Shown one piece after another: positions 23,172 through 38,470 of a stretch of DNA of 64,000 bases; the stretch's first letter is position 1; every line of letters starts with the position of its first letter. The stretch is taken from the NCBI GenBank assembly GCA_963755905.1, contig CAVWLM010000002.1, positions 160,754-224,753 on the forward strand. The letters run 5' to 3'. The position numbers and the translations under genes are program-made. The stretch is from an uncultured delta proteobacterium (lineage in GTDB: Bacteria > Desulfobacterota > Binatia > Binatales > Binataceae). The notes under the pieces were generated by a model. That model was given only the letters and a program-made list of their open reading frames with translations, made no database searches and had not been told where the DNA came from.

Positions 23172-23189
23172 GGTCTGGACGGGGGGTTC

Positions 23190-23239: not shown

Positions 23240-23647
23240 GGACGACGCAATTGGAAGAGAAAAAAAACTGTGTACTACGCCGGCTCGCCGGACGGGCGTC
23301 GTTCAGTGCCGATGCCTGCGTCTGCGGAGCGATTCACCTGACGATAGGATTCATCACCTTGCGGGTCGATCCATGCGCATTCCGTGAATTCGCCGCCGTA
23401 GTGATGGAGAGCCTGCGCCACCTCGAAGCCCCGGACTGTCCGACAATTCACTGAGGTTGTTTCCCACCAAGCACGTGGCTTGCGCCGCGAACCGCGGCTC
23501 ATCAAGCTTGCATAGGGCCGAATATCGCGCCGCAACTCGCATGCTTCGCGATGGCCCCGAGTTTTGCGATGTTGTTCCAGACGCCGAGGGCACTATCGAG
23601 AGGGACGGCCGGCAGGCGTGGTTCCGCAAGGGCGACAGGAGCAGGAT

Positions 23648-24523
23648 ATGAAAATCGGAGTCGCAACATTTCTCACCGAACATTCAGGTAATCCCGGCAC
23701 GATCGCGGCCGAGGCCGAGGGCGCCGGCTTCGAATCGTTCTGGGTCGCGGAGCATCTGGTCATCCCGGTCACTTACACGACCTGGTATCAGCGTTCGCCC
23801 GACGGCAAAGTGCCGGAGTCCTACGCCCATCTGGCCGATCCGTTTGTCGCACTGGCGGTGGCCGCGCAGGCGACCTCGCGCATCCGCCTCGGCACCAGCG
23901 TCTGTCTTTTGCCCGAGCGCAATCCGATAGAAACCGCCAAGGCCGCCGCGACGCTCGACCTGTACTCGGGCGGCCGATTGATGCTGGGGGTCGGCGCGGG
24001 CTGGTTTCCCGAGGAAGCCGCGATAATGGGTGTCGATTTCAAGCGCCGTTGGCGTCATCTGCGCGAATCTGTCGAGGCGATACGCGAGCTGTGGACCAAG
24101 CCAGAAGCGAGCTATGAGGGCGAAATCATCAAGTTTCCACCGGTCAGGCTTTTTCCCAAGCCGGTGCAAAAACCCTGTCCACCGATCTTTCTCGGCGCGC
24201 ACGACCCCGCGCGGGCATTGAAACGAGTCGCGCGATGGGCGGACGGATGGATGCCGGGCGGACTCAGCCCGGAACAGGCCGAAAAGTGCATACCGCAGGT
24301 CAAGCGGATGGCGCGCGAAAATGGGCGAGACTCCGAGCGTATGGAGTTTTCGGTGATGCTTGGTATCGGCTCGCAGCAGGCTCCGACGACCGAAGCGCTC
24401 GAGCGCTATGCCGCTGCCGGTATCACGCGGGTGATTATCCTGGCGGCCGAGACCGCCGCGCGCGACGGGGTCGAAGTGGTCAGGGGACTGGCGCCGCTCG
24501 TCGAGCGCGCGGCGCGGATCTGA
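23648..24523 (+). CDS. LLM-class F420-dependent oxidoreductase
   Basis: MKIGVATFLTE...FESFWVAEHL...LGTSVCLLPERNP. Start taken at MKIG (23648). Confidence 0.8.
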   Translation: MKIGVATFLTEHSGNPGTIAAEAEGAGFESFWVAEHLVIPVTYTTWYQRSPDGKVPESYAHLADPFVALAVAAQATSRIRLGTSVCLLPERNPIETAKAAATLDLYSGGRLMLGVGAGWFPEEAAIMGVDFKRRWRHLRESVEAIRELWTKPEASYEGEIIKFPPVRLFPKPVQKPCPPIFLGAHDPARALKRVARWADGWMPGGLSPEQAEKCIPQVKRMARENGRDSERMEFSVMLGIGSQQAPTTEALERYAAAGITRVIILAAETAARDGVEVVRGLAPLVERAARI

Positions 24524-24651
24524 CGCGTGGCCTTTTCGGCGGCCACGCAGGAATTGCCGCACGGGCGGCCTTGTCGCATCATGTAGCCAGTGACATAGTG
24601 CGATGATAAGCATCAGCGCAGTTCAATAAACGCAATTCCGGCATAGCACGC

Positions 24652-24960
24652 TTGATTATCGAAACGATCAAAATCGAATTGAACTCGATAGTAGTAGCGA
24701 CCGCGAACCAGATTTCCTGCGACCTCGAGGGCGACGCCGCGATCCTCAATCTGAAAACCGGCGTATACTATGGACTGGACGATATTGGCGCGTCGATTTG
24801 GCGGATGCTAAACGAGCCGCGTCGCGTCGATGATCTGGTCGACGCATTGCTCGGCGAGTATGAGGTGGACCGCGAGGAATGCCAGCGCGACGTGATCGCG
24901 TTGCTGGGCGAACTTGCCGTGCGCGGACTGGTCGAGGTAAGTGACACGCTCGAAAGTTGA
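24652..24960 (+). CDS. PqqD-family RiPP recognition element (lasso-peptide B1-like)
   Basis: ILNLKTGVYYGLDDIGASIWRMLNEPRRVDDLVDALLGEYEVDREECQRDVIALLGELAVRGLVE is near-consensus PqqD/B1. TTG start. Confidence 0.8.
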   Translation: MIIETIKIELNSIVVATANQISCDLEGDAAILNLKTGVYYGLDDIGASIWRMLNEPRRVDDLVDALLGEYEVDREECQRDVIALLGELAVRGLVEVSDTLES

Positions 24961-25469
24961 CTGCCCTCGGCGTTGTCGCGGGGCTGGACCGTCCCGCCTG
25001 GAAATCCCGTCGAGCGCGAGCGTCCAGGACCACGATGGTACGTCGAGCCGCTAAATTTCTTGGCCTGCCGTTCTCCGACCAGCGGCTGCTTATGCGTGCC
25101 GCGCTGGCGGTCGTCGGTGCAAAGGTCGCTATTAGAACCTTGCGCTTGCCCGCCGCGCGCGCGGCAGTTTTGCGCCTGGAACGCCTGGGATGGTTTGTCA
25201 TCCCGGCGCCCGCGGACCGTATTGTCTGGGCCGTGGCAGCAGCTGGAGGCACCATACCCGGCATGAAGAATTGCCTGGTGCAGGCGGTGGCGGCCGAGGC
25301 GATGCTCATCCGCGCGGGCCATCCGTGCGAATTCCGGATCGGCGCTGCGAAAAGCGGGCCGCACGGCCTGATCGCGCATGCATGGCTGGAGAATGAGGGC
25401 CGGGTTCTTATCGGCGATTTCGAGGTCGATCGCTACGCTCCGCTGATGGCGCGTCGTCCTCAGAATTAA
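24957..25469 (+). CDS. Transglutaminase-like cysteine protease (lasso-peptide B2-like leader peptidase)
   Basis: CLVQAVAAEAMLIRAGHPCEFRIGAAKSGPHGLIAHAWLENEGRVLIGD has the Cys...His...Asp arrangement of lasso B2. Overlaps the B1 stop. Confidence 0.8.
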   Translation: MTALGVVAGLDRPAWKSRRARASRTTMVRRAAKFLGLPFSDQRLLMRAALAVVGAKVAIRTLRLPAARAAVLRLERLGWFVIPAPADRIVWAVAAAGGTIPGMKNCLVQAVAAEAMLIRAGHPCEFRIGAAKSGPHGLIAHAWLENEGRVLIGDFEVDRYAPLMARRPQN

Positions 25470-25637
25470 GCCTGTATTTTCAATGATTTCGTCCTGTTCC
25501 TTGGGCTTATCGTAGAGTGTAGACTCGCCTCCGGATCAAGGGTTGCGGATGTGACGATTCGCGAACTGACCCGCAGGCGGCGCACAATCAAATCCTCCGT
25601 ACAGCCGCGTTCCTCTCGACCAGCGCGATCGCGCTAT

Positions 25638-26630
25638 ATGGCCTATGGGCTCGCGATTGATTCCGATCTGTCGCTGCCCCAGTTGGAAGCGACGCGCGGT
25701 CAATCCTGGCCGTTTCTGCTGGGGAAACTACGTATACGAGTGCGGCGGCAGGAGGCGCGCGAGCCGCAGGAGTGGCTGCTTCAGACCAGCCTCCCCGACG
25801 GGCAGCCGTGGATGTGGGCGGCACGCCAAGAGCGCGGCTTTCTGATCCGCTACTTCGGTCTGGCTGATTTCATAGTGAATTCGAGGGGTACGGAGATCGT
25901 TCTCACGCGCGCCGAACCGGTAAGCTCGAGCGATACCGTGGGCCATCTGCTGCTGGATCATGCGCTTCCGATGGTTTTGGGCCTGCGCGGAATCCCGACG
26001 CTCCATGCCTCCTCGGTGGTGACCCCGCGCGGCGTGTGCGCTTTCGTGGGGACCACCGGAGCCGGCAAATCTACGCTCGCCGCAAGCTTTTCCGCCGCTG
26101 GATATCCAGCCTTGGGCGACGATTGCCTAGCGATAGCGGAGGACGGCGGATTTTTCGCCATCCCGGCATACCCGGGCGTACGCTTATGGATGGATTCCGC
26201 ACGATCATTGTCGACGGAATGGTCCAATGCGCCCACCGTTGCGCATTACACGAACAAGCTGCGTATTTTTGATGCGTCCGCCCTCAAGAACTTCCCCACG
26301 CGGCTCGAACCGCTGGCGGTCATCTATTGCCTCGCGCGCGATACGGCAGGCGTCGATCCAGGCGCGGCGTCGCCCTCGATCGAGCCGATGCAGCCCAAGG
26401 ACGCCTTTCTGGAACTGCTATCTGCCAGCTTCATGCTGGACATCACCGACAGCTCGGTGCTGACCCGCAACCTTCGCTTTATCGAGCGCTTGTTCAAGGT
26501 GGTGGCGGTACGGCGGCTCAAAATTCCCGAGGGATTTTCTTCATTGCCCAAAGTACGCGAGACGGTTTTCAACGACCTTGGTGTGCCGGCTCCCCGCGCC
26601 ACCTTCGGCGCGCCCCTCGGAGCTAGATAG
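25638..26630 (+). CDS. HPr-kinase (HprK C-terminal domain)-like serine kinase
   Basis: HASSVVTPRGVCAFVGTTGAGKSTLAASF is a P-loop in HprK-like context. Start taken at MAYGL; the ORF opens at 25551. Confidence 0.7.
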   Translation: MAYGLAIDSDLSLPQLEATRGQSWPFLLGKLRIRVRRQEAREPQEWLLQTSLPDGQPWMWAARQERGFLIRYFGLADFIVNSRGTEIVLTRAEPVSSSDTVGHLLLDHALPMVLGLRGIPTLHASSVVTPRGVCAFVGTTGAGKSTLAASFSAAGYPALGDDCLAIAEDGGFFAIPAYPGVRLWMDSARSLSTEWSNAPTVAHYTNKLRIFDASALKNFPTRLEPLAVIYCLARDTAGVDPGAASPSIEPMQPKDAFLELLSASFMLDITDSSVLTRNLRFIERLFKVVAVRRLKIPEGFSSLPKVRETVFNDLGVPAPRATFGAPLGAR

Positions 26631-26665
26631 GAGGCGGCCAATCGCGTACGCCCCTGGCGTCGTCG

Positions 26666-27931
26666 ATGCGCGTCATCAACCCGATCGCATCTCTTCTGAA
26701 ATCCGGTTCGGCGGTGAGCCGTGAGGCTGAACTGCTCATCTGTTGCTCGACCTCGGTCGCGACGCCCGAGCGCACGGCGCGTTTGCGCGCGATCGTTCAG
26801 AGCGGCGTCGATTGGCCTCTCGCCACGCGGATGGCGTTGGTACAGGCGGTACTGCCACTCGTCTATCGCTACCTGACTGCGGAGCTTGCCGACGCCTTGC
26901 CGGCCGATGCGGCCACGAACCTGCGCCGGGCTTATCAGGGTAACTCTTTGCGCAACCTCCATCTCGCGCGCGAGCTAATCCGATTGACCGCACTTTTGGA
27001 GCGGGGCGGCGTCGAGACGCTAGCGCTCAAGGGTCCGGCGCTGGCGATGACCGCCTACGGCAGTGTCGCGATGCGGCAGTTCACCGACCTTGACCTGCTG
27101 GTGCGCAAGAGCGCGGTGCCACGCGCGGTCGAACTACTACATAACGAGGGCTACGCGCTCCGCGAGGGGTTCGGCCTGGCTGACCTCGGGCGGCGCGACA
27201 CCTACGAAATTGCGCTCACGCGGGCGGACCGGCTGACCGAAATCGATCTTCACTGGAGACTTATCCTGCCGTATTTTCCGTTTTCGCTCGACAGCGAAGA
27301 TCTGTGGCGGCGTGCCGTGCGGGTGGAGATCGAAGGCGGCGCCGTGCGTACGCTCGCGCCCGCCGATCATCTGCTCTATCTATGCGTGCACGGCGCCAAG
27401 CATGGATGGCAAACGCTCGGCGGGATTTGCGATCTGGCCGGGCTGATTCGCGCTTCGTCGCAGGCATCATCGCAAGCATTCTCAATCGACTGGGATGAGC
27501 TCTCGGCACGCGCCGAGCGAGCCAGTGCGCCGCGGGCGCTGTGGCTCGGCACGCTTCTCGCGCATGAGCTGCTCGACGCCGCGGTGCCGGCCGGCGTGCT
27601 CGCCGCGGCTCGTCGCGAGCCCGCGGTGATCCGCGCCGCGCGCTGTTTCGTCGGTTACGTGAGCGACCCGGGCGACGATGGGCCGGGATTCTACCAGCGA
27701 TGGTCGGTGCCGCTGCGCGTAATCGCGGAACCCGGAGCGCGGCTCCACTACCTGGCGGCTCGCGCGCTGCTGCCGAGCGCCGACGATCGCGAATTTTTGC
27801 GCCTGCCGCCGGTGCTCCATCCCCTGTACTATCTACTGCGTCCGGTCAGGGTGGCTCTAAAGGAGGGTCCCGCCGTCCTACGCAGGCTTATGCGTTCGGC
27901 CCTACGGCCGGCAGATCATTCATCGCGGTGA
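26666..27931 (+). CDS. Nucleotidyltransferase-family protein (uncharacterised NTase, often lasso-cluster associated)
   Basis: Family call by overall similarity (LALKGPALA...FTDLDLLV...LHWRL) plus context. Confidence 0.55.
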   Translation: MRVINPIASLLKSGSAVSREAELLICCSTSVATPERTARLRAIVQSGVDWPLATRMALVQAVLPLVYRYLTAELADALPADAATNLRRAYQGNSLRNLHLARELIRLTALLERGGVETLALKGPALAMTAYGSVAMRQFTDLDLLVRKSAVPRAVELLHNEGYALREGFGLADLGRRDTYEIALTRADRLTEIDLHWRLILPYFPFSLDSEDLWRRAVRVEIEGGAVRTLAPADHLLYLCVHGAKHGWQTLGGICDLAGLIRASSQASSQAFSIDWDELSARAERASAPRALWLGTLLAHELLDAAVPAGVLAAARREPAVIRAARCFVGYVSDPGDDGPGFYQRWSVPLRVIAEPGARLHYLAARALLPSADDREFLRLPPVLHPLYYLLRPVRVALKEGPAVLRRLMRSALRPADHSSR

Positions 27932-29835
27932 GCAAAACCCTCGAAGCTTATATCCGCGCGTTGTTCGAGGTCGGACGAGCTCGAATCGCCGGTGCGATCG
28001 CATTGATGTTTCTTTTTTCGGTCAGCGAGGGTGTCGGGATCGCGCTGCTCCTGCCGATCCTCCAGGCCTCCGGCTTCGACCTCGGCGCGCAGGGCACGGT
28101 TGGGCGCTACGCAAGAGCTTTCGATTCCGCGCTTGACTCTGTCGGCTTCCATCCGAGCCTGCTGTTGCTGCTGATGGTGTTCGCGGGATTGGTCGGGGCG
28201 CGGGCGCTTCTGGGGCGTTGGCAGATAGTCGCGATGGTCTCGGTGCAGCAGAATTTCGGCGCCCGTCTGCGTCAGGGACTGTACCACGCGATCGCCAACG
28301 CCAACTGGCTCGCGCTTTCGCGGATGCGCTCGTCGGACCTGGCTCACGCGCTGACGGCGGAGATAGACCGGGTCGAAGCCGCGACCTTCGAAGTGCTTAG
28401 CCTCGCCTCCTCGGCGCTGCTGTTCCTGCTCTATCTTGCGATCGCGCTTGCGGTCTCGGCGGGGATGACAGCGCTCGCGCTAGGTTGTGGAATCGTCCTT
28501 GTCGCATTGCTGCGCGGACGCGCGGCGCTTCTGCGCGGCGCAGGCGCCGACTTGTCGGAGCGGACCAAGGGACTGTACCGCGCCACGGTCGAGCATCTGC
28601 AGAGTCTCAAGGCAGCCAAAATGTACGGCCTGCAGGAGCGCAATGCCGAATCCTACGCGACGCTCAGCCGCGAGGTCTCCCGAGCCGGCGTCGATATCGA
28701 GCGCCAGCAGGCCGCCACCAACTCGCTCTTCGAGATTGGTTCGGTCGTGATCCTGGCTGCCGTGCTCTACGTCTCGATTCGCGTGCTGGGGGTCGCTCCG
28801 TTCGCGGTGCTGTTGCTGCTGGCGATGTTCGCGCGCGTGATGCCGCGCGTCATTCAATGCCATCAACTGTACCAGGAGTGCATGCATGCGCTGCCCGCGT
28901 TCGAGAACGTAAACGATCTGGCCGGGCGTTGCGCAGCGATGGCCGAGCCGGCGATCGTTCTCGCTCACGCGCTCGAATTTCGAAATTCGCTGAAGCTCGA
29001 GGGTGTCTCGTTCTCGTATCGGCGCGCGAATGACGCCGCATCCGCCAACCAGTCTGACCAATCGAGCCAATCTCCCCAATGGTCTCCCGCTCAATCCAAA
29101 AATCCGCCCGCGGTGCGCGATCTCGACCTGACGGTGCGTCTGGGTGAGGTCGTGGCGCTGGTCGGTCCTTCGGGTGCGGGCAAGAGCACGATTGCCGATT
29201 TGATGACGGGTTTGTTGCCGCCTGATTCGGGAAACGTCACAGTCGACGGCGTTGTGCTGGACGAAACCCGTGCGCGCGCTTGGCGCGAGCAGGTAGGTTA
29301 TGTCTCGCAAGACACCTACCTCTTTCACGACACTGTGCGGGCCAATCTGCTGTGGGCAAGGCCGCAGGCGAGCGAGGCCGAATTGCGCGAGGCGCTCGGC
29401 CTCGCCGCGGCGCAACAATTCGTCGACGCTCTGGCGGAGGGACTCGACACGGTAATCGGCGAGCGGGGCTCGTCGATTTCGCACGGTGAGCGCCAGCGTA
29501 TCGCGCTCGCGCGGGCGCTGTTGCGCCGGCCTCGTTTGCTCATCCTCGACGAGGCGACCAACAGCCTCGACGCGCACAACGAGCAGCGAATCCTTGACGC
29601 GATCGAACGGCTACGTGGCGATCTGACCATCGTGATGATCGCGCATCGGATTGCGGCCGTGCGGCGGGCCGACCGGATCAACGTAGTGGACGGCGGTTCG
29701 ATCGTGGAATCGGGGAGTTGGAATGAACTATGCGCTCGAGAGCATGGGCGCTTTCGAGCGTTATGCGAGAGCCAGGGAATCGCACCCGTGCCGCTGGCCC
29801 CGGCGGCGCCTCCGTCAATAGGCCGTCTGGCATAA
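27928..29835 (+). CDS. ABC transporter, fused permease/ATPase exporter (lasso McjD-like)
   Basis: Six-TM domain followed by an NBD (GPSGAGKST Walker A, ILDEATNSLD Walker B, IAHR H-loop). GTG start overlapping the upstream stop. Confidence 0.8.
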   Translation: MSKTLEAYIRALFEVGRARIAGAIALMFLFSVSEGVGIALLLPILQASGFDLGAQGTVGRYARAFDSALDSVGFHPSLLLLLMVFAGLVGARALLGRWQIVAMVSVQQNFGARLRQGLYHAIANANWLALSRMRSSDLAHALTAEIDRVEAATFEVLSLASSALLFLLYLAIALAVSAGMTALALGCGIVLVALLRGRAALLRGAGADLSERTKGLYRATVEHLQSLKAAKMYGLQERNAESYATLSREVSRAGVDIERQQAATNSLFEIGSVVILAAVLYVSIRVLGVAPFAVLLLLAMFARVMPRVIQCHQLYQECMHALPAFENVNDLAGRCAAMAEPAIVLAHALEFRNSLKLEGVSFSYRRANDAASANQSDQSSQSPQWSPAQSKNPPAVRDLDLTVRLGEVVALVGPSGAGKSTIADLMTGLLPPDSGNVTVDGVVLDETRARAWREQVGYVSQDTYLFHDTVRANLLWARPQASEAELREALGLAAAQQFVDALAEGLDTVIGERGSSISHGERQRIALARALLRRPRLLILDEATNSLDAHNEQRILDAIERLRGDLTIVMIAHRIAAVRRADRINVVDGGSIVESGSWNELCAREHGRFRALCESQGIAPVPLAPAAPPSIGRLA

Positions 29836-29948
29836 GCTGGAAATCCTGATTCCCGAAGCGCGTCGGCATCCAGGCGCGCAATCATTGGAAGAGGCGAGCG
29901 GAGTCTTTTCGGCCAATCAGTCCTTTATCCGGTCGGAGCGGCTGTCGC

Positions 29949-31370
29949 TTAGCCCAGGTGCGGTACCGATCCGGGTGCCGCCTCGAGCACGGCCGCACGC
30001 CACTCGCGCTTGATCGGCAGGATCGGTGGCATCGGCGCAAAATCCGGCTCCGGCGTAGGCGCGGCGATCGAATCGATGTTCAAGGTGCGCGAAGCTTTCC
30101 GCATGAAGAGATTATAGATCAGCCATTGCGCGCGATGCCGCCTGCCGCGCAACGGAAATCGGCTGGCCATCGAAGACGCCGAATAAAAATTTGCGTAAGC
30201 GCGCTCCAGGCCGATACGAAGCTCGTCCGCCGACATCTGCGCCGGCTGAAATACGACGTGGCCTTGATCGTACATCGTCCAGTCGAAGGAAACGATTCGG
30301 TTCGCCTTCTTCATCTCGTACCAGGTGAGCGTGCCCGGATAGGGCGTGAGCGCCGAATAGGCACAGGCATCGAATTTGGCGCCGACATTGAAGGCGACCG
30401 TTTCGTCGAAGACCGATCGATCGTCGCCGTCGAAGCCATACATGAACAACCCGAATACCATGATCCCGTATGAATGCACTTTCTCGACCAACGCGGCGAA
30501 GGTCTCGGGCCGATTGACGTGCTTGTGTACGCTTTCGAGCGTCGCGCGTGCGATCGACTCGAAGCCGATGCTCAACATCGTGCAACCGCTTTCGGCGGCG
30601 AGCTCGAGCATGCGATCGTCCTGCGCCAGTTTAGAGGTGACGCCGGCTTGCCATTGGATGCCGCGTCCTTTCAGCGCACGCATCACTTCCTTGGGACGCT
30701 CCGAGGTGCCGAAAAAGTCAGCGTCGTTGATCGAGACCGTGCGCGAGCCGCAGTTCTCCATCTCGTAAATGACCTCATCGACCGGCCGATAGCGGAATTT
30801 CAGGCCGTTCATGAGCGGTTCGGCGCAGAAAGTGCAGCCCTGGTGGCAGCCGCGCGAAGTCTGAACAAAGGTGCGGTTCACGTAACGGTTCTTTTTCAGC
30901 AAATCGTAACGCGGCATCGGCATCCCGGCCATCGGATGCAACGTATCCGACTTATACGTGCCTCGCATCGAGTGCTGCTCGAGGTCATCGAGCAGCTTTC
31001 CGATAACGAACTCGACCTCGCCGATAACGACGGCATCGCAATGCTTCAGCGCTTCCTGCGGCATGAAGCTTGGATGCACACCGCCCATCGCGACGGGCAC
31101 GCCTTTGGCGCGGAATCGGTCCGCGATTTCATAGCCGCGATTGACGTAACTGGTCATCGCGGAAATCCCGACGAGGTCCGCTTTCAAATCGAAATCGATC
31201 GTTTCGATGTTTTCGTCCGTAAGCACCACTTCGTACTGGTCCCGCGGAATGGACGCGGCGACCGCGAGTAAGCCTGCGAGCGGAGAATAGAGTGCGCGGT
31301 TCATGTATACCGGCCGAGTGGTAACAGAATCGGTCTTCGGATTAATAAGATGAATGATGCGAGTGCGCAC
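29949..31370 (-). CDS. B12-binding domain radical SAM protein
   Basis: N-terminal B12-binding region (DLVGISAMTSY) and SRGCHQGCTFCAE, a CxxxCxxC motif. GTG start with a GGAGA RBS. Confidence 0.8.
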   Translation of the reverse strand: MRTRIIHLINPKTDSVTTRPVYMNRALYSPLAGLLAVAASIPRDQYEVVLTDENIETIDFDLKADLVGISAMTSYVNRGYEIADRFRAKGVPVAMGGVHPSFMPQEALKHCDAVVIGEVEFVIGKLLDDLEQHSMRGTYKSDTLHPMAGMPMPRYDLLKKNRYVNRTFVQTSRGCHQGCTFCAEPLMNGLKFRYRPVDEVIYEMENCGSRTVSINDADFFGTSERPKEVMRALKGRGIQWQAGVTSKLAQDDRMLELAAESGCTMLSIGFESIARATLESVHKHVNRPETFAALVEKVHSYGIMVFGLFMYGFDGDDRSVFDETVAFNVGAKFDACAYSALTPYPGTLTWYEMKKANRIVSFDWTMYDQGHVVFQPAQMSADELRIGLERAYANFYSASSMASRFPLRGRRHRAQWLIYNLFMRKASRTLNIDSIAAPTPEPDFAPMPPILPIKREWRAAVLEAAPGSVPHLG

Positions 31371-31933
31371 TAGGTTCTCCTGTACTTACTATCCGAAGTT
31401 ATAGCCACTAGCGGGTATCGATAATTGCAGAGAAAAAGACCCATCGCTTCGGTTGCCCAGACTCTCACTCCCAAAGAATCCATCGAGGACGTATGAGAAT
31501 TTATCAGATTGCCAGTCGGTCCGATACCGAGCGCTCGAAGTGTGAAGCCTGGAAGCTTTAGGGGACGACGATCAGGCGAGCGATAAATATGCGACGTTCG
31601 GATAATTTGACAGTTATCCGTGAAGTGTCCATGAACAGTCCGGATTCCGGCACTACCTTAACGCGCTTCAAAGCGTATGGAAGGAAGAATTTTATACCCG
31701 GAATTAATTACACGGGGAGCATCAATTGCGGGTCGCCCGTAGTTGAGAAAAGGGCGCAAGTTCCATCTCCCACAGAACAAATACGCGCTGGCACAGTGTG
31801 TGCGTTCTCACCGAAACGAACGTCGAGTCACTACGAATCATCGGGTGACAAGCCAGGCGATTTGTCTGCATCCGCTTTAATCGAATCGGATGCGGAAAGT
31901 TTGTTCAGAATCCGCGGTTAGCCGCGGGAGGAG

Positions 31934-32158
31934 ATGAGACCGATGAAATATCCAAACAGGTTCGTTCGAATTCTTTTAAGCGCAACCGTATGTTTCGCGA
32001 TGGCAGGATGCTTTTCCTACAGCAAAGAGGAAAGCACCGCGGTTCCGACCGTCGAGACGCCTGCGACGACCTCGTCGACTACGACTACAACCACGGTTCC
32101 GGACACCAGTACGACGATAGAGAAGCGTACTACCACGACATTTCCCAGCAATCCGTAG
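31934..32158 (+). CDS. Small Thr-rich lipoprotein
   Basis: Lipobox FAMAGC followed by TTSSTTTTTTVPDTSTT. GGGAGGAG RBS. Confidence 0.5.
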   Translation: MRPMKYPNRFVRILLSATVCFAMAGCFSYSKEESTAVPTVETPATTSSTTTTTTVPDTSTTIEKRTTTTFPSNP

Positions 32159-32257
32159 CTCGTCGCTGGAATGTGAGCGAGCGGCACTTGCTGGATATCG
32201 AGGCCGAGCATCGCGTTGGTGTTACAGGTGCGCGGCGCTTTGCGGGAGTGAAGTGAG

Positions 32258-32683
32258 ATGAGGGATACCAGCAATCACAGTTGGCAGCGATCGCTTGCGG
32301 TACGGCTGATACTCGGCGGGATGGGCGTCAGCGGGATGACCGTCACTATGGTGAGCGCGCGTGCCATAGCCCAGACGACCGTGAACAGCGAGAGTATGCA
32401 TCAAGAGAACCTGTCAGCGCATAGCGTCGAGAGTCATCACTATGCCTCGCCGGCGGATCGCGCGCGGGATGCGCTGTTGATTGTGAAGGTCAAGGCCGCG
32501 ATTGCCGATGAGGGGCTGGCTGATAACTATCCGCTGACCGTCGACGCCGATCATGGGAGAGTGACTCTTACTGGCGTCCTCGCTTCTCCCCAGGACGTGC
32601 GGCGCGCGGTCACCCTGGTGGCCAGGATTGACGGCGTGACGGGCGTGAACAACCGGCTAACGTGGCAGAAAGGTCCGCAGTGA
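32258..32683 (+). CDS. BON-domain protein (OsmY-like)
   Basis: VKAAIADEGLADNYPLTVDADHGRVTLTGVLASPQDVRRAVTLVARIDGVTGVNNRL is a BON domain. Confidence 0.7.
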   Translation: MRDTSNHSWQRSLAVRLILGGMGVSGMTVTMVSARAIAQTTVNSESMHQENLSAHSVESHHYASPADRARDALLIVKVKAAIADEGLADNYPLTVDADHGRVTLTGVLASPQDVRRAVTLVARIDGVTGVNNRLTWQKGPQ

Positions 32684-32754
32684 CGTCCAGGAACAAACGC
32701 GCAAGAGATCAGCTAATCCGAGCGAGCGGTTGCCGCTCGGCTAAGGAGAGTCCA

Positions 32755-33108
32755 ATGAAATCCCCAATTCTCAAGGTTCTGTCGGCGGCCCTCGGTCTAA
32801 GTGCTTTGCTGGCGGCAGGATGCGTCAGCCATGAGGAGAAGACCACGGCCTATGTACCGCCCGCTCCGGTGGCGGTTGTACCGGCGCCAACCGTGGTGGT
32901 GACCGCGCCGCGGCCCGCCCCGGCGAGCGTCCAGCCTGACGTCAGCTCCACCAGTCAGACCACCGAAACATACAACGCCACAAGCTCCGACAACGCGTCC
33001 AATCCCAGTGGCGACAGCACCACAACCAGCTATCGGCAGCACAGTGAGTCGAGCACGGTTAAAACAGTGCCGGTTCCTCCTCCGCCTTCGGTCACCACAA
33101 TTTACTAG
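32755..33108 (+). CDS. Ser/Thr/Pro-rich lipoprotein
   Basis: MKSPILKVLSAALGLSALLAAGC lipobox. AAGGAGAG RBS. Confidence 0.55.
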   Translation: MKSPILKVLSAALGLSALLAAGCVSHEEKTTAYVPPAPVAVVPAPTVVVTAPRPAPASVQPDVSSTSQTTETYNATSSDNASNPSGDSTTTSYRQHSESSTVKTVPVPPPPSVTTIY

Positions 33109-33388
33109 AAGCGCGAACAGGCCTAATCCCCGGCGCAGTGAACAAGACGCTGCGTTACGATCCGTCGGTTGCGACGTGGCGCCGGATGGTCCGGCGTCAT
33201 GTCACGCTCGATGGCGTCGATTTGCGCTCGGCCGGCTTGAAGCGCGAATCGCATTGGAAGATTTGATAACCTGCTTTTCGGATTTGAGGATCGACAGGAG
33301 CCGCAACATTTCCTTCCGTCGAACACCTCATTTCGTGGGCCCCAGGAGCTTTGGGTCCGAGCTCGATCTGGGAATTGCAGGTAACGGC

Positions 33389-34075
33389 ATGCGCGCCGCG
33401 GAACGCGATAAGTTGTTGTTGACTCTGGCGATCACTTCGGGTTCCGCCGACGGATGGAGCTACATGGGACTGGGGCATGCCTTTGTAGCTAATATGACCG
33501 GAAATACGGTGCTGCTGGGTATCGCGACATTCGGTGAACGTCTCAATCTATTACCTCCGTTGATTTCGCTGGTGTGCTACGCAGCCGGAGTCGCTATCGG
33601 ATCCTTGGTCACTCGCAAGGTAAAGCAGAGTTCGATCTGGTCGAAGTCCATTTCCCTGGTCCTGTTTTTTGAATTTCTTCTGTTGGTCGCGGCAGAGGCA
33701 ACATGGATCAGATCCGGAGGAAGGCCGAATCCGATGACGAAAGCCCTGCTGCTCGGCGACGTTGCCACAGCCATTGGACTTCAGAGCGGCGCTATGTTGC
33801 CGCTTAAGCTGCCAGGCATCATTACCACTTACATCACAGGCACCTGGACCACGCTGGTGAGCGGCCTTGTGTTGATGGGCAGCGGACAGGAACGTGTGCA
33901 CGGTAACCAGGCCGCCTTCGAGGATCGTCTCATAATTCAGATTGTATTCCTGGTCATTTACTTCTTATCGGCGGTGGCGACAGGATGGATCTTCCGTTAT
34001 AAGCCGGAGTTAGTAGGGGTAATAGCCTCGACTCCGATCCTGGTCGTCGTGGCTTACGGAGCGTTGCGGAATTAG
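33389..34075 (+). CDS. DUF1275 (YoaK-like) membrane protein
   Basis: Multi-TM. GWSYMGLGHAFVANMTGNTVLLGIA matches the DUF1275 N-terminus. Confidence 0.6.
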   Translation: MRAAERDKLLLTLAITSGSADGWSYMGLGHAFVANMTGNTVLLGIATFGERLNLLPPLISLVCYAAGVAIGSLVTRKVKQSSIWSKSISLVLFFEFLLLVAAEATWIRSGGRPNPMTKALLLGDVATAIGLQSGAMLPLKLPGIITTYITGTWTTLVSGLVLMGSGQERVHGNQAAFEDRLIIQIVFLVIYFLSAVATGWIFRYKPELVGVIASTPILVVVAYGALRN

Positions 34076-34247
34076 CTTGTGACTCGAGCGTTCCAGCCGC
34101 TCTTTCCTCGCACGATGCCTCCGCGGCTTGCCCCCTTGCGCGGCTAGATTCCGTCTTTGCGCGACACCTCGTCGCTCCAGCTTCGCGATGAAGGACTGAG
34201 AGGGACTCGACTCTGGCTCATCCGCGGATCGTTAGGCGGGCCGCGAC

Positions 34248-35432
34248 TTGACGTCGAGTTCGATGAGCGGCTACGAATCGGATGTTTTGAAAGTCAGCAA
34301 AGACATTCCGGAGCAATCGACCGGCTGCCATCGGAATTCGGAGCGATATTTCAAGCCCCTGATGTATCTGCTTGCCGCGTTGGCGGCATACGTGAGTGGG
34401 GCCAACATGCATTTGGGCTACGCCTATGCAGCGGATGCACCCGCGCAGGCTGGCCTGACCGTGCCCCAGGTCAATTCGCTACTGACCCCACCCGGTCGGG
34501 ACGGCGAGAAGGTCCCGATCCAGGTCGCGTTGGACGTTATCAATTTGTCCGACATAGATGAGGTCACTCAGCGTTTCAGGGTCGTAGCCTACCTGCTGGC
34601 TAAATGGACGGATCCCCGCCTCGCGTTCACTCCAAAGGCCGCATGGGAGAAATTTCGAGTTTATCACCCTGACGAAGTATGGACGCCGCATTTCGATTTC
34701 GCCAACGGCGTCGTGCCGCACTCCGCGTCTGACGTCACCCTGCGGGTCTTTCCCGATGGGACGGTCAAATATTTCGAACGTTCCAGCGCCGAGCTTTCCA
34801 ATAGTTTTCATCTTCGCCGTTTTCCATTCGATCGGCAGCGCCTGGAAATACTTATTCATCCGCCGCTCAGCGAAGCCGCGCTGGTACATTTCCTCGGCAC
34901 AGCCAATGGACCGTCGATTAGTGTGGAGAGACGAGTCTATTCGTCTCTGGCGGAATGGGCGATCGTAGGAATCCTGGCAAATGCCGAACTAATTCCCGTA
35001 TTCGGCACGGACACCACAAGCCAGATGCGATTCACAATCCAGGTCAAACGAAAGTTCAACTTCTATATATGGAAGGTATTCTTCCCCTTGCTACTCATGG
35101 TGCTCCTTTCGTGGACAGTCTTCTGGATCGACAGCTCGGAGCTAAGCAGTCAGGTTACTATCTCGGTCACGACGGTTCTCACCGTTATCGCCTTCGCATT
35201 TGCGATCTCGACCAACTTGCCGAAGGTTCCATACCTGACCTTTATCGACGTGTTTTTCTTGAGCTGCTACGTGTTTGTCTTTATCACAGCCATCGAACTC
35301 ACCCTGGTACACCTCGCCGGTCGGAGCAAACGCGACAAGATGGGAGAAGCTATTCGGCGCTTCAGCAGGATCGGCTTGCCCGTGCTATTCGTCCTCACCA
35401 ACCTGCTGACGATCGCGGTCTACTTCGGTTAG
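34248..35432 (+). CDS. Pentameric ligand-gated ion channel (prokaryotic Cys-loop receptor family)
   Basis: Extracellular LBD motifs (VINLSDIDEVTQRFRVVAYLLAKWTDPRL) followed by four TM helices. A probable signal peptide starts at M 34362. Confidence 0.75.
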   Translation: MTSSSMSGYESDVLKVSKDIPEQSTGCHRNSERYFKPLMYLLAALAAYVSGANMHLGYAYAADAPAQAGLTVPQVNSLLTPPGRDGEKVPIQVALDVINLSDIDEVTQRFRVVAYLLAKWTDPRLAFTPKAAWEKFRVYHPDEVWTPHFDFANGVVPHSASDVTLRVFPDGTVKYFERSSAELSNSFHLRRFPFDRQRLEILIHPPLSEAALVHFLGTANGPSISVERRVYSSLAEWAIVGILANAELIPVFGTDTTSQMRFTIQVKRKFNFYIWKVFFPLLLMVLLSWTVFWIDSSELSSQVTISVTTVLTVIAFAFAISTNLPKVPYLTFIDVFFLSCYVFVFITAIELTLVHLAGRSKRDKMGEAIRRFSRIGLPVLFVLTNLLTIAVYFG

Positions 35433-35680
35433 TTGCGACGCGCACGGCGCGCTGGCTTCGCGAACAAGGAGGAACGCTATGAGGCCGCGGATCGGCATCA
35501 AAAGACTGACCCGCGCGATCGAAGCTGAGGTGAGAGGAATGAGGTCGTCGGCGTCTCGGGCGAATATTAGTTGAGAGCGATGCACCGTCGTTGCATTACG
35601 CCATACCAAGTGATTGATCAGGGTGGGGATCAAGCCGAAAAGACTTCGCAATGCTCGAACACGTTGGGGGGAGAACGCGT

Positions 35681-36832
35681 ATGCGCCCGTGCATAATCAT
35701 ACCAGGGATTCAGGGTTCCGCACTACAGAATGTGTATCCGCTCTCGCCGCTAACGACCTGGTCTACTTTGACTATCGTCGGGGAAAAGTTCGCAGCGCCT
35801 GATTTCGACAGTCTAGCGCTCGATGACGCTGCGATGGCGGACCGTGATGAGCACGTCGTCAGCCGACCGTCACAATTGCTCGAAATCGCGTACGGACCGC
35901 TGACCCAGGCGCTTCAAGGACGGCTGGACGTGCCGGCGTATCTGTTTCCATATGACTGGCGCTATTCGATCGCGCAGAGCGCGCAGGCGCTGGTTCAATA
36001 TGTCAACCGTTTGAAGTTAAAGTCGATGCCGTCAGTTCAAAAATGGGACGGCCTGTTTGATTTCGCGGTTCACAGCATGGGAGGCCTTGTTCTGAGGGCT
36101 TTTCTGGACGCCTGGCAAAGATCGGGCGCAGCGCCGTTACCCATCGGACAGATCTGTTTTATAGCAACGCCGCATCTCGGCGCGCTCGACGCGGCCGTGG
36201 CGCTGATCAGCGGTGAGACGCCATTGTTCGGCGGCTACAAAGAATTGCGAAAGCTCGCAAGGACTTTCCCCGCAGTATATGAGCTTCTACCTCGTTTTCC
36301 CAATGCGATAGTGCGAGCCGGAGCGCCGATCGATATCTTCGACGTGAAGAACTGGCAAAAGAATACCGTGGATCCTGACGTCGGCAATAGTGGATTCGAC
36401 GTTGAACCGGTTCATCTAATCGCCGCGAAAAGAGTCCTGACAACGCTGCCACTGCCGAGTGACCCGCCGTTCAAGATTCTTCCCGGCGATCAGCTTGTGA
36501 TCTTCGGTAATAAACCCAACGCGGTAATGGTTGAGGTCCAGGTGGGACCGGCCCCGGACTGCTGGTACGACTTCGATGGTGCGACCAAGGGCGCCGGCGA
36601 CGATGTGGTGCCAGTGCAGTCGGCGCGGCTCGCGGGTGTATCGTCGGTGGAGATTCAGGAAGACGATGTTTCTTATTTCCACCCGGTCGAGCGCGGTATG
36701 GCCTCATCCGATATGCACGCGTTTCTTCCTGCGCTCGACGAGGTCGCGACGATCGTCGCGCGATTCTTTCAGGGAGAGCGGGGGCTGGACCTGCTGCCCA
36801 AAGGCCTGCCGAGCTCTAGATTCCATCCCTGA
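35681..36832 (+). CDS. Alpha/beta-hydrolase lipase (LCAT/PGAP1-like)
   Basis: AVHSMGG is a GxSxG nucleophile elbow. Confidence 0.55.
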   Translation: MRPCIIIPGIQGSALQNVYPLSPLTTWSTLTIVGEKFAAPDFDSLALDDAAMADRDEHVVSRPSQLLEIAYGPLTQALQGRLDVPAYLFPYDWRYSIAQSAQALVQYVNRLKLKSMPSVQKWDGLFDFAVHSMGGLVLRAFLDAWQRSGAAPLPIGQICFIATPHLGALDAAVALISGETPLFGGYKELRKLARTFPAVYELLPRFPNAIVRAGAPIDIFDVKNWQKNTVDPDVGNSGFDVEPVHLIAAKRVLTTLPLPSDPPFKILPGDQLVIFGNKPNAVMVEVQVGPAPDCWYDFDGATKGAGDDVVPVQSARLAGVSSVEIQEDDVSYFHPVERGMASSDMHAFLPALDEVATIVARFFQGERGLDLLPKGLPSSRFHP

Positions 36833-37381
36833 CGCTGGGACTTTGCCGCTCTACAAGGAGCAAGAGCCGATAGCCCGGACCGCAGATCTCTCCTAACTCG
36901 AGCACGTGTTCTTGAATCTCGCCTGAGCGCGGAGCCATCGAAATCTGGCACCGCGACTATAACTTTGCGACCGCATGGCAGTCTCGGCGCCTTCACGCCA
37001 AACGAGTTCGCGATGCTCCAGGGACACGAACTACAACCTCGAGTTTTCAATATAGACGAGCGACCCGGCCTCTAAAGTCATACGAACTTTCTGATTGTCT
37101 TCGGAGCATATGAATAAGGTAGGAGTCAAAAAGGTCTATTTGGCGACAAGGCGTAAAATAGGAGGTTTTAATTCTTTATTTAAGAGTGAAACCTGCAAAA
37201 ATGTCAAACGTACTAAGGTGAGCAAAAATGAGCGAGCCATAGAAGATCAGCTGAATACGGATGACCACTGATAGAGGTGGGCTTTGTGACGACTTGAGTC
37301 GCAGACATTCGGTACGGCTCAGTCCAAAGGGTCTGTCTCAACACCGCAGACCAACCACCTCAAAATTAAGGCGTAGTCCCG

Positions 37382-38470
37382 ATGATTTACGAGGGACGAA
37401 TTCCATCGTTGGACGGTCTGCGTGGTATAGCCGCGATAGCGGTGGTTGGCTTCCATTACAACATCTTCTTTCTACCGCAGGCTCGGCTGCCGTTTGTCGG
37501 TCGGGGATATCTCGCAGTCGATTTCTTCTTCCTGCTCAGCGGCTTCGTGTTGGCACACGTCTATGGACGTGAGCTTGCGTCCGATTGGCGGTCGCATTGG
37601 CAAAAATTCGCGATGGCGCGTTTTGCCCGCATCTACCCCCTATTCGCCCTTACAACGATAGTTATGGCGACGATTCACCTGTCCGGCGCACCGCTAAGGC
37701 TGGTTTTGTTTTCCGGCCGGTCGCTGATGCTTCAACCATTTCTACTGCAACAATGGTCTGGCCTAAGTTGGAACTACCCATCCTGGTCAATCAGCACCGA
37801 AGCCGAAGCCTACGTCTTTTTCGTCATCTTTGCCGGCCTGCTCGTCAAGGGAAAACATCCAGGCCTGATCGGTGTATGCTGTGTCGTCATTTTGACTACG
37901 CTTTGCATCACTAAGGACGGAGATCTGAATCTCTACAGCGGAATTCCCGCTCTGCTCCGCACACTAGTCGAATTTTCGTTTGGGGTTCTTCTTTATCGCG
38001 CCCATTCGAACTACAAGGGATTCGCGGCCGGATGGGTAGGAATTCTCGCTATTCTGTTCTTCGGCTTGGCAATGAAAACGAAACTGGATTTCTTAGCCTT
38101 GGGTGCGTTTGCCAGTCTCATTTACTATAGCGTCAACGCGACCGACGGGTTTGCAAGGCTGCTAAACTCTCGTCCCTCAGTGGCCCTCGGCAACTGGTCG
38201 TATTCAATTTATCTTTGGCACGCGCCAATCCAATACGCTGTCATGGTCGTATTTGCCGCCAGTGGCTATCCGGTTAGCAATCTCAACGTTTCAAGTGCAA
38301 GATTGTTGGCATTGGCGACGATTTTGGTTGTTGTGCGGCTGTCGGCTTACAGCTACCGATCCTTTGAGGCTCCAGCACGTCGCTTTTTAACGCAATCGCT
38401 AACGAGAACCTCGTCCGGAGTGCTGACGCCGATGCAAACCGATCAGATGAACCGCTACCCGCTTCGATAA
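37382..38470 (+). CDS. Acyltransferase family 3 (OafA/YrhL-like O-acyltransferase)
   Basis: LDGLRGIAAIAVVGFH...LAVDFFFLLSGFVL is the AT3 signature; about 10 TM helices. Confidence 0.8.
   Translation: MIYEGRIPSLDGLRGIAAIAVVGFHYNIFFLPQARLPFVGRGYLAVDFFFLLSGFVLAHVYGRELASDWRSHWQKFAMARFARIYPLFALTTIVMATIHLSGAPLRLVLFSGRSLMLQPFLLQQWSGLSWNYPSWSISTEAEAYVFFVIFAGLLVKGKHPGLIGVCCVVILTTLCITKDGDLNLYSGIPALLRTLVEFSFGVLLYRAHSNYKGFAAGWVGILAILFFGLAMKTKLDFLALGAFASLIYYSVNATDGFARLLNSRPSVALGNWSYSIYLWHAPIQYAVMVVFAASGYPVSNLNVSSARLLALATILVVVRLSAYSYRSFEAPARRFLTQSLTRTSSGVLTPMQTDQMNRYPLR

What the first reader, a model, noticed from the sequence alone, without database searches (positions are those of the whole stretch)
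29949..31370. B12-binding radical SAM gene convergent with the RiPP exporter, at the start of a lower-GC stretch
B12-rSAM enzymes act as C-methyltransferases on several RiPP classes. This one ends about 110 nt from the ABC exporter stop on the opposite strand. Its GC content (~58-60%) is lower than the RiPP genes (~65%+). It may therefore be RiPP tailoring, or it may be the first gene of the adjacent island, for example a hopanoid or other methylase.
Basis: inference. Interest (0 to 1): 0.5.

Follow-up and report, generated by a model that had tools for sequence, protein, structure and literature searches.

The report
Orphan B12-type radical SAM gene insertion
The gene is a real B12-domain radical SAM enzyme, but it is a single gene inserted next to the peptide cluster rather than part of it, and it belongs to a tightly conserved soil-bacterial family of unknown function.

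Summary
The ORF at 29949-31370 (-) is real: 473 aa, a B12-binding-like domain, a radical SAM core, and CX3CX2C at C175/C179/C182. It lies 113 nt from the ABC exporter stop, convergent with it.

It is not RiPP tailoring:
- None of 80 genomes with an orthologue (82-92% aa identity) has B1, B2, kinase, nucleotidyltransferase or ABC genes within 10 kb.
- Among 53 loci related to the lasso-like cluster, only the same strain carries the rSAM.
- Two syntenic Binataceae relatives (81-89% nt identity) run from the ABC gene straight into the small-ORF/BON operon. The rSAM and about 430 nt of flank therefore form a roughly 1.9-kb single-gene indel.

It is also not HpnP (no DUF4070), HpnR, HpnJ, BchE, TsrM or a PoyC-type enzyme. 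All of those models score far below their cut-offs.

The family is a stand-alone gene with no conserved neighbour. It is under strong purifying selection (dN/dS about 0.08) and is shared between Binataceae and Alphaproteobacteria at a dS of only 0.5-1.25, which implies horizontal transfer. In 37 of 80 loci it is preceded by an EcfG-type promoter, GGAAC-N16/17-YRTT.

The closest solved folds are AprD4 and MgmA. The function is unknown. My best guess is a stress-induced radical modification of a common cellular substrate, possibly a lipid.

The parts
29949..31370 (-). Coding sequence of the 473-aa B12-binding-domain radical SAM protein. It has an N-terminal Rossmann-like domain at residues ~4-140, a radical SAM barrel at ~165-340 with C175/C179/C182, and a C-terminal helical region.
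   Evidence: The AlphaFold model has pLDDT 92.4. An identical protein sits in the same context in two other assemblies, L081 and L106.
31371..31385 (-). Translation-initiation region (cAGGAGaaccta before the GTG). This is the only non-coding sequence conserved with orthologues.
   Evidence: blastn homology to 80 loci starts 10-15 nt before the start codon and ends within a few nt of the stop. An alignment of start regions shows a conserved GGAG with an AATTTC-like spacer.
29796..31690 (.). Segment of about 1.9 kb that is present in the window but missing at the same junction in the syntenic Binataceae relatives L103 and L111. It is a single-gene indel made of the rSAM CDS, 113 nt downstream and about 320 nt upstream. 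No terminal repeats or target-site duplication were found.
   Evidence: Window 20405-29795 matches L103 2096-13091 at 81-89% nt identity, and 31917-33104 matches L103 13498-14830. Short matches at 31695-31712, 31789-31810 and 31923-31977 fix the right boundary. L111 shows the same order, ABC then small ORF then BON. Repeat scan.
29836..29948 (.). 113-nt spacer between the convergent stop codons of the ABC exporter gene and the rSAM gene. No terminator-like hairpin was detected.
31371..31690 (-). Upstream non-coding region specific to the window copy. It is AT-richer (the whole 31371-31989 interval is 49% GC). It has one sigma-70-like match at 31631-31602, no EcfG-type motif and no Rfam match.
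27928..29835 (+). Left boundary, not part of the unit: the ABC exporter gene of the cyclase-less lasso-like cluster (B1 24652-24960, B2 24957-25469, HprK-like 25551-26630, NTP_transf_5 26666-27931).
   Evidence: The cluster is conserved without the rSAM in relatives.
31990..32683 (+). Right boundary, not part of the unit: the small ORF (88 aa as called) and the BON-domain gene. In L103 and L111 these directly follow the ABC gene.

Best explanation
The gene encodes a soluble, stand-alone class-B-type radical SAM enzyme: an N-terminal cobalamin-binding-like Rossmann domain, a [4Fe-4S]/SAM barrel, and a short C-terminal helical domain. It is a functionally self-sufficient single-gene unit.

In this Binataceae genome it was inserted, most parsimoniously by horizontal transfer, between the ABC exporter of a lasso-like cluster and a small-ORF/BON operon. 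It has no functional tie to either.

Shown here: domain architecture, the cluster-binding cysteines, the indel, the absence of any conserved partner gene, strong purifying selection, cross-phylum sharing, and an ECF (EcfG-type) promoter in about half of the mostly alphaproteobacterial orthologues.

Inferred: the enzyme reductively cleaves SAM to a 5'-deoxyadenosyl radical and modifies an unactivated carbon. Methylation is likely if cobalamin is bound; otherwise a rearrangement or dehydration like that of AprD4. The substrate would be one that every host already makes, because the gene travels alone. Expression would be turned on under general stress. My preferred but weakly supported substrate class is a membrane lipid or isoprenoid (about 0.25). 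RNA, protein or small-metabolite substrates remain open.
For: Architecture.

Not co-inherited with anything:
- None of 21 window neighbour proteins recurs syntenically beside the gene in 80 orthologue loci. Only two gave hits, both at about 30-33% identity to paralogues: LLM in 1 locus and the AMP-ligase in 15.
- The largest neighbour cluster is present in 16 of 80 loci.
- 99 non-redundant flanking proteins hit 110 Pfam families, none in more than 3.
- DNA homology is confined to the CDS plus the RBS.

Indel.

Not an assembly artefact: the same junction is seen in three assemblies, the window, L081 and L106.

Host is Binataceae: named homologues of NTP_transf_5 at 74-78% identity are all Binataceae.

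rSAM orthologues at 82-92% identity occur in Pseudolabrys, Bradyrhizobium (including cultured B. erythrophlei, WP_079607601.1), Roseiarcus, Methylovirgula, Reyranella, Binataceae and WPS-2.

Selection: dN/dS median 0.079 with dS 0.5-1.25.

Promoter: GGAAC-N15-18-YRTT lies 53-79 nt upstream in 37 of 80 loci. Controls gave 0 on the reverse strand, a mean of 0.68 in shuffles, and about 1% of random windows. The published EcfG consensus is GGAAC-N16-CGTT (PMC3892343).

Lipid hint:
- The best NCBIfam matches are HpnJ and the 'lipid biosynthesis B12/rSAM' model.
- A 37%-identical relative sits inside a squalene-hopene cyclase cluster.
- Relatives at 33-38% identity lie in multi-rSAM clusters with GH3; the plasmid copy also carries PAP2 and desaturase genes.
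Against: - No experiment and no partner gene point to a substrate. The lipid idea rests on distant relatives at 33-38% identity, and on one SHC-linked organism only.
- Other relatives at similar distance have unrelated contexts.
- The window copy itself lacks the EcfG-type motif, and Binatia have no described EcfG system, so the stress regulation may not hold in this genome.
- Deletion in L103 and L111, rather than insertion in the window lineage, is not formally excluded.
- Some taxon labels of MAGs are unreliable. L029, labelled 'Phycisphaerales', shares synteny with alphaproteobacterial loci.
Confidence: 0.7

Rival explanations
1. RiPP tailoring enzyme. Under this reading the B12-rSAM C-methylates (or otherwise modifies) the peptide made by the adjacent B1/B2/kinase/nucleotidyltransferase/ABC cluster.
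For: Physical adjacency, 113 nt from the exporter gene. B12-rSAMs do methylate RiPPs in other systems (established knowledge: PoyC, TsrM, ApyD). Weak hits to ApyD and rSAM_ocin_1.
Against: - 0 of 80 orthologue loci have any cluster gene within 10 kb.
- Of 53 loci related to the cluster, only the identical strain (L106) has the rSAM. Eight or more loci with over 1.5 kb beyond the ABC gene lack it.
- L103 and L111 keep the cluster and lack the gene.
- The orientation is convergent.
- ApyD scores 52 bits against a cut-off of 750, rSAM_ocin_1 31 against 282, and TsrM 25.5 against 500.
- The cluster also lacks a lasso cyclase.
Confidence: 0.03
2. Orthologue of a known hopanoid or bacteriochlorophyll B12-rSAM: HpnP (C-2 methylase), HpnR (C-3 methylase), HpnJ or BchE.
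For: The taxon range (Xanthobacteraceae, Beijerinckiaceae, Reyranella, Acidobacteriota, Desulfobacterota-like) resembles that reported for HpnP (bioRxiv 10.1101/2025.07.29.667474). hpnP of R. palustris is EcfG-regulated (Kulkarni 2013, cited in PMC4263297), and this family often has an EcfG-type promoter. The best NCBIfam hit is HpnJ.
Against: - 68 of 68 benchmark HpnPs carry PF13282 (DUF4070) and 14 of 14 HpnRs reach TIGR04367. The query has no DUF4070 hit even at E<=10 and scores 67 bits against the HpnR cut-off of 650.
- HpnJ scores 94 bits against 578, and BchE 75 against 481.
- Proteins with the HpnP architecture (529-538 aa, full DUF4070) are only 26-28% identical to the query.
- No hopanoid gene lies near it in B. 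erythrophlei or recurs in the 80 loci.
Confidence: 0.03
3. New type of lipid or isoprenoid-modifying rSAM (for example a hopanoid or acyl-chain methylase) induced by stress. This is the substrate-specific version of the best explanation.
For: lipid-linked relatives; stress promoter; hosts are acid-soil and peat bacteria.
Against: The support comes from relatives at 33-38% identity only. The family itself never sits near lipid genes. The protein has no membrane segment; the maximum Kyte-Doolittle score over 19 residues is 1.3.
Confidence: 0.25
4. Cobalamin-independent radical enzyme of the AprD4 type (dehydratase or rearrangement) acting on a soluble metabolite.
Against: Identity is only 20-21%. 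AprD4 works with a partner reductase inside a biosynthetic cluster (my own knowledge), whereas this gene has no partner. NF033070 (AprD4) scores 49 bits against a cut-off of 500. The Pfam B12-binding domain is above its threshold.
Confidence: 0.15
5. Macromolecule-modifying enzyme (protein, rRNA or tRNA), possibly conferring a selectable trait such as resistance. That would explain spread as a single gene.
For: A stand-alone gene spreading by HGT under strong constraint. Structural neighbours include MgmA (a protein methylase), RimO and MiaB.
Against: There is no TRAM or other nucleic-acid-binding domain. MiaB/RimO models score about 24 bits against cut-offs above 250. No close homologue occurs on plasmids; the best is 37% identical. 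No mobile-element flanks were found.
Confidence: 0.15

Closest known systems
AprD4 (radical SAM 1,2-diol dehydratase of apramycin biosynthesis, PDB 6fd2)
   Different: Identity is only 20-21%, and the score against the AprD4 family model is 49 bits against a cut-off of 500. AprD4 lies in an aminoglycoside gene cluster with a partner enzyme, whereas this gene is always alone.
MgmA (cobalamin-dependent MCR glutamine C-methyltransferase, PDB 9ccb; TIGR04014)
   Different: TIGR04014 scores 61 bits against a cut-off of 360. MgmA is archaeal and specific to methanogens, while this family lives in aerobic soil bacteria.
HpnJ (hopanoid-associated B12-rSAM, TIGR03471)
   Same: It gives the best NCBIfam score (94 bits, residues 169-398) and has the same length class, 472 versus 473 aa.
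   Different: The score is far below the equivalog cut-off of 578. No hpn genes are nearby.
HpnP (hopanoid C-2 methylase; B12-binding + rSAM + DUF4070)
   Same: Both are B12-rSAMs with a similar taxon range. Both often have an EcfG-type promoter.
   Different: This protein lacks DUF4070, is about 55-65 residues shorter, and is only 26-28% identical to proteins with the HpnP architecture.
RiPP B12-rSAM C-methyltransferases (PoyC-type TIGR03975, ApyD, TsrM)
   Different: All models score far below their cut-offs. There is no co-occurrence with RiPP genes in relatives.

Membership tests
Radical SAM superfamily, class-B-like (B12-binding-domain) architecture | CX3CX2C motif for the [4Fe-4S] cluster within a Radical_SAM (PF04055) core | tested here: met
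   C175-x3-C179-x2-C182, invariant in 80 orthologues and in 49 distant relatives. PF04055 scores 56.9 bits against a cut-off of 29.5.
Radical SAM superfamily, class-B-like (B12-binding-domain) architecture | N-terminal Rossmann-like B12-binding domain (PF02310) | tested here: met
Radical SAM superfamily, class-B-like (B12-binding-domain) architecture | Actual binding of cobalamin and methyl transfer | not testable with these tools
   The closest fold, AprD4, has the domain but does not use cobalamin (my own knowledge). Settling this needs cofactor analysis of purified protein.
HpnP (hopanoid C-2 methylase) | C-terminal DUF4070 (PF13282), present in 68 of 68 benchmark HpnPs | tested here: not met
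   No PF13282 hit even at E<=10. Benchmark table.
HpnP (hopanoid C-2 methylase) | Match to IPR034530 / grouping with verified HpnPs in a tree | not tested
   InterPro/SFLD models and verified sequences (ACF02765, AND88218, ACC78835) were not available. As a proxy, proteins with the HpnP architecture (L094, L095) are 26-28% identical to the query.
HpnR (hopanoid C-3 methylase) | Score at or above the TIGR04367 cut-off, reached by 14 of 14 benchmark HpnRs | tested here: not met
   67.3 bits against a cut-off of 650. Benchmark.
HpnJ | Score at or above the TIGR03471 cut-off, and location in an hpn cluster | tested here: not met
   93.8 bits against 577.6. No hpn genes in the flanks.
BchE (anaerobic Mg-protoporphyrin monomethyl ester cyclase) | Score at or above the TIGR02026 cut-off | tested here: not met
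   75.1 bits against 481.
RiPP maturation B12-rSAM methyltransferases (TIGR03975, ApyD NF050148, TsrM TIGR04428) | Score at or above the family cut-off | tested here: not met
   31 bits against 282, 52 against 750, and 25.5 against 500.
Component of the adjacent lasso-like gene cluster | Co-occurrence with B1/B2/kinase/NTP_transf_5/ABC genes in related genomes | tested here: not met
   0 of 80 rSAM loci carry cluster genes. Only 1 of 53 cluster loci carries the rSAM, and that locus is the same strain. The syntenic relatives L103 and L111 lack it.
Alphaproteobacterial general stress (EcfG) regulon | GGAAC-N16/17-CGTT-type promoter upstream | tested here: inconclusive
   Met in 37 of 80 orthologue loci with the relaxed motif (-10 element YRTT) and in 7 of 80 with the strict motif. 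Not met in the window copy. Dependence on EcfG has not been measured.

The most novel reading that the evidence does not exclude
The family may be a horizontally mobile, single-gene, stress-induced (EcfG-driven) B12-radical SAM enzyme that installs a not-yet-assigned modification, such as a new methylation, on a membrane lipid or hopanoid. That lipid would be shared by acid-soil Alphaproteobacteria, Binatia and other phyla. If so, this is a new lipid-tailoring enzyme class, relevant to the interpretation of soil lipid biomarkers.
Probability: 0.15. Interest if true: 0.7.

Novelty: new member of a known kind. Interest (0 to 1): 0.4.

Why it matters
For this window, the result removes a false link. 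The lasso-like cluster should not be predicted to make a C-methylated product on the strength of this neighbour.

More generally, the analysis defines a very tight, widespread B12-rSAM family with these properties:
- It is present in at least 196 species-level genomes.
- Members share 82-92% identity across phyla.
- It has no curated family model and no known function.
- It moves as a single gene.
- In Alphaproteobacteria it appears wired to the general stress response.

A cultured carrier exists (Bradyrhizobium erythrophlei), so the function can be tested directly.

Tried and rejected
- Rfam scan of 22-40 kb at E<=1: only tRNA-Leu, with no riboswitch or leader upstream of the gene.
- Terminator and promoter scan of 29.6-32.3 kb: nothing above shuffle expectation.
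- Direct or inverted repeats flanking the inserted segment, and att-like repeats of the tRNA: none convincing.
- Plasmid collection: no close homologue, best 37% identity, so there is no evidence for plasmid carriage.
- The afdb50 fold library was unavailable, so UniProt-named structural neighbours could not be obtained.
- Literature searches for hpnP primers, for the B. erythrophlei accession, and for an EcfG-regulated rSAM other than hpnP found nothing usable.
- The hopanoid preprint's supplements contain no sequences, so a direct alignment to verified HpnP was not possible.
- Contexts of outgroup relatives are heterogeneous: one SHC cluster, multi-rSAM/GH3 clusters, and several unrelated settings. 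They give only a weak functional hint.
- The idea that the low GC marks the gene as compositionally foreign was rejected, because its GC3 equals that of the host genes.
- The idea that it belongs to a tRNA-linked island was rejected. The ancestral BON operon lies between the gene and the variable 33-39.7 kb stretch, and no integrase or att repeat was found.
Full report
**Observation.** The ORF at 29949-31370 on the minus strand is real. It encodes 473 aa from a GTG start preceded by GGAG. Its codon-position GC is 0.58/0.43/0.74. Pfam finds a B12-binding domain (residues 30-120) and a Radical_SAM core (170-326), both above their gathering scores. The cluster motif C175-x3-C179-x2-C182 is present. 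The gene is convergent with an ABC exporter gene that ends at 29835, leaving 113 nt between the stops. Its GC is 58.6%, against 62-66% for most genes of the neighbouring cluster. However, GC3 (0.74) is the same as in those genes. In 54 host loci the family is about 2 GC points below its surroundings while GC3 is equal or higher. The low GC is therefore a property of the protein's composition, not a mark of foreign codon usage.

**Surroundings.** Upstream on the plus strand lie, in order:
- an F420-type LLM oxidoreductase;
- a PqqD-like B1 (24652-24960);
- a transglutaminase-like B2 (24957-25469);
- an HprK-like protein (25551-26630);
- an NTP_transf_5 protein (26666-27931);
- the ABC exporter.

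No asparagine-synthase-type lasso cyclase exists anywhere in the window. On the other side of the rSAM lie a small ORF, a BON-domain gene, a 117-148-aa ORF (32662/32755-33108), then DUF1275, a pentameric ligand-gated channel, an LCAT-like protein and an acyltransferase_3. These last genes have lower GC3 and run up to a tRNA-Leu at 39736-39816.

**Is it one of the known B12-rSAM families?** No NCBIfam equivalog is reached:

| Model | Score (bits) | Cut-off (bits) |
|---|---|---|
| HpnJ | 94 | 578 |
| 'lipid biosynthesis B12/rSAM' | 78 | 360 |
| BchE | 75 | 481 |
| HpnR | 67 | 650 |
| ApyD | 52 | 750 |
| PoyC-type rSAM_ocin_1 | 31 | 282 |
| TsrM | 25.5 | 500 |

NCBIfam has no HpnP model, so I used a published benchmark. 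In it, all 68 reference HpnPs carry Pfam DUF4070 and all 14 HpnRs reach TIGR04367 (bioRxiv 10.1101/2025.07.29.667474, Table S2). The query has no DUF4070 hit even at E<=10. Two proteins with the HpnP architecture, from Bradyrhizobium and Chroococcidiopsis plasmids (538 and 529 aa, with full DUF4070), are only 26-28% identical to it.

**Relatives and their contexts.** The protein belongs to a strikingly tight family. The best 120 database clusters are all 84-100% identical. One genome per species yields 196 carriers, and the best 80 are 82-92% identical. They are mostly Pseudolabrys and other Xanthobacteraceae, plus Bradyrhizobium, Roseiarcus, Methylovirgula, Reyranella, Binataceae, 'delta proteobacterium' MAGs and one WPS-2 MAG. 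A cultured carrier is Bradyrhizobium erythrophlei (WP_079607601.1, generic PGAP name). In the library clustered at 50% identity the next full-length relatives are 63% and 46% identical, followed by a broad group at 35-41%. None of 49 such relatives reaches a named NCBIfam either.

Four results show that the gene has no conserved partner:
- None of 21 window neighbour proteins recurs syntenically next to the gene in the 80 loci. Only two gave hits, both at about 30-33% identity to paralogues: LLM in 1 locus and the AMP-ligase in 15.
- De-novo clustering of all flanking ORFs finds no neighbour in more than 16 of 80 loci. Those few reflect synteny within Pseudolabrys sub-clades.
- The 99 non-redundant immediate neighbours hit 110 different Pfam families, none in more than three.
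- Nucleotide homology between loci begins 10-15 nt before the start codon and ends at the stop.

The conserved unit is therefore the CDS plus its ribosome-binding site. There is no conserved small ORF that could be a precursor peptide.

**The gene is an indel at this site.** Homologues of the neighbouring NTP_transf_5 gene that carry a name are all 'Candidatus Binataceae', at 74-78% identity. The host is therefore a Binataceae bacterium. A relative, L103, is colinear with the window at 81-89% nucleotide identity from 20405 to 29795 and again from 31917 to 33104. In L103 the ABC stop is followed after 392 nt by the small ORF and the BON gene, with no rSAM. A second relative, L111, shows the same arrangement. 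Short matches at 31695-31712, 31789-31810 and 31923-31977 show that the right third of the window's intergenic region is the ancestral promoter region of the BON operon. The extra segment thus spans about 29796-31690. It holds the rSAM, 113 nt downstream and about 320 nt upstream.

No terminal repeats or target duplication flank the segment. The same junction occurs in two further independent assemblies of the same strain, L081 and L106, so it is not a chimeric assembly.

In the reciprocal survey of 53 loci related to the lasso-like cluster, the rSAM appears only in L106. This holds even though at least eight loci extend more than 1.5 kb beyond the ABC gene. Other Binataceae versions of the cluster do contain a lasso cyclase and a PRMT-like methyltransferase, but never a B12-rSAM.

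**Evolutionary behaviour.** Against 41 gap-free orthologues, dN/dS has a median of 0.079, with dS only 0.5-1.25. In a neighbour-joining tree the window copy groups with the 'delta proteobacterium' MAGs, a WPS-2 contig and one Beijerinckiaceae MAG. All of them lie inside a shallow star-like clade dominated by Alphaproteobacteria. By contrast, the neighbouring NTP_transf_5 gene decays from 82% to below 45% identity within its first 100 database hits. No alphaproteobacterial name appears among the named hits. Together with the indel, this indicates transfer between phyla followed by strong purifying selection. I found no vehicle: no plasmid copies and no conserved flanks.

**Regulation.** In 37 of 80 loci a GGAAC-N15-18-YRTT motif (mostly N16/17) lies 53-79 nt upstream of the start. 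Controls gave none on the opposite strand, a mean of 0.68 in shuffles and about 1% of random windows. This matches the alphaproteobacterial EcfG general-stress promoter, GGAAC-N16-CGTT (PMC3892343). The -10 element here is more often CATT than CGTT, and another ECF sigma factor cannot be excluded. The window copy lacks the motif and has only a weak sigma-70-like match.

**Structure.** An AlphaFold model built on 50 sequences is confident (pLDDT 92.4, pTM 0.91). The best solved matches are:

The fold is therefore class-B-like. But the nearest neighbour is not a methylase and does not use cobalamin (my own knowledge), so the chemistry cannot be read from the fold. No transmembrane segment is predicted. 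Apart from the three cluster cysteines, C207 and C263 are invariant in the family, but there is no second cluster motif.

**Hints to substrate.** Contexts of the outgroup are mixed:
- One 37%-identical relative lies inside a hopanoid cluster: an HpnA-like epimerase, TetR, the rSAM, squalene-hopene cyclase, DUF116 and a Dxs-IspH fusion.
- Relatives at 33-38% identity lie in multi-B12-rSAM clusters with GH3; the plasmid copy also carries PAP2 and desaturase genes.
- Others are solitary or sit next to unrelated genes.

Together with the HpnJ and 'lipid rSAM' best matches, this makes a lipid or isoprenoid substrate the single most likely class. The probability is still low, about 0.25.

**Conclusion.** The RiPP reading is not supported, and neither are the specific hopanoid or bacteriochlorophyll methylase identities. 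The gene is a horizontally acquired, self-contained member of an uncharacterised and unusually conserved B12-domain radical SAM family. Because it travels alone, it most likely acts on a substrate that all its hosts already make. In Alphaproteobacteria it is probably switched on by the general stress response. It is a new member of a known kind, of moderate interest. The main value for this window is to uncouple it from the lasso-like cluster.

Noticed in passing
window 24652-29835; L103, L104, L105, L108, L110, L111, L113, L115, L116, L120, L122-L124, L126, L130, L134, L137: The lasso-like cluster (B1, B2, HprK-like, NTP_transf_5, ABC) has no asparagine-synthase-type cyclase in the window, or anywhere else in the 64 kb. 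Many Binataceae relatives carry the cyclase between B2 and the HprK-like gene, some with a PRMT-like methyltransferase. The window, L103, L108 and L111 go directly from B2 to the HprK-like gene. This looks like a cyclase-less sub-clade whose product, if any, cannot be a lasso peptide.
   Followed up: partly
L089-L091, rSAM at 6001-7383, SHC at ~7450-9424: P0133, a B12-rSAM 37% identical to the target, sits inside a hopanoid-type cluster: an HpnA-like epimerase, TetR, the rSAM, squalene-hopene cyclase, DUF116 and a Dxs-IspH fusion. It reaches none of the HpnJ, HpnR or other NCBIfam cut-offs and has only a partial DUF4070. It may be an undescribed hopanoid-associated rSAM.
   Followed up: partly
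L084 (Citrobacter portucalensis plasmid NZ_CP134684, 51.4-63.5 kb); L100/L101: Clusters of four to five tandem B12-rSAM genes together with a GH3-family protein. In the IncF plasmid the cluster also holds an N-acetyltransferase, a PAP2 phosphatase and a fatty-acid desaturase. This looks like an unusual lipid-tailoring cassette, here on a mobilizable enterobacterial plasmid.
   Followed up: no
window 33100-39700: A stretch with lower GC3 (0.59-0.68) encodes DUF1275, a pentameric ligand-gated ion channel homologue, an LCAT-like lipase or acyltransferase, an acyltransferase_3 and a shortened Na+/H+ exchanger. It is not syntenic with L103 or L111 and ends at tRNA-Leu (39736-39816, minus strand). 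No integrase or att repeat was found.
   Followed up: partly
L004, L009, L011, L013, L015, L022, L028 and others, 53-79 nt upstream of the rSAM start: An ECF/EcfG-type promoter, GGAAC-N16/17-(C/T)(A/G)TT, lies at a fixed distance in 37 of 80 orthologue loci. The -10 element is mostly CATTG rather than the textbook CGTT.
   Followed up: yes
L029 (labelled Phycisphaerales) versus L030, L004, L009, L022: The 'Phycisphaerales' contig shares gene order and a nearly identical rSAM with alphaproteobacterial loci, so it is probably a mis-binned contig. Taxon labels of some MAG-derived loci should be treated with caution.
   Followed up: no
window 31917-32260 versus L103 13498-13745: The small ORF upstream of the BON gene is called in different frames and lengths in the two relatives: 88 aa from 31990 in the window strain, and 73 aa from an ATG equivalent to window ~31944 in L103. 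The aligned DNA differs in length by 6 nt. The true small ORF is uncertain.
   Followed up: no
window 45528-48401 (-): A stand-alone protein with an adenylation domain, a carrier protein domain and a thioesterase domain (AMP-binding, PP-binding, Thioesterase; 957 aa). It is a single-module NRPS-like enzyme.
   Followed up: no
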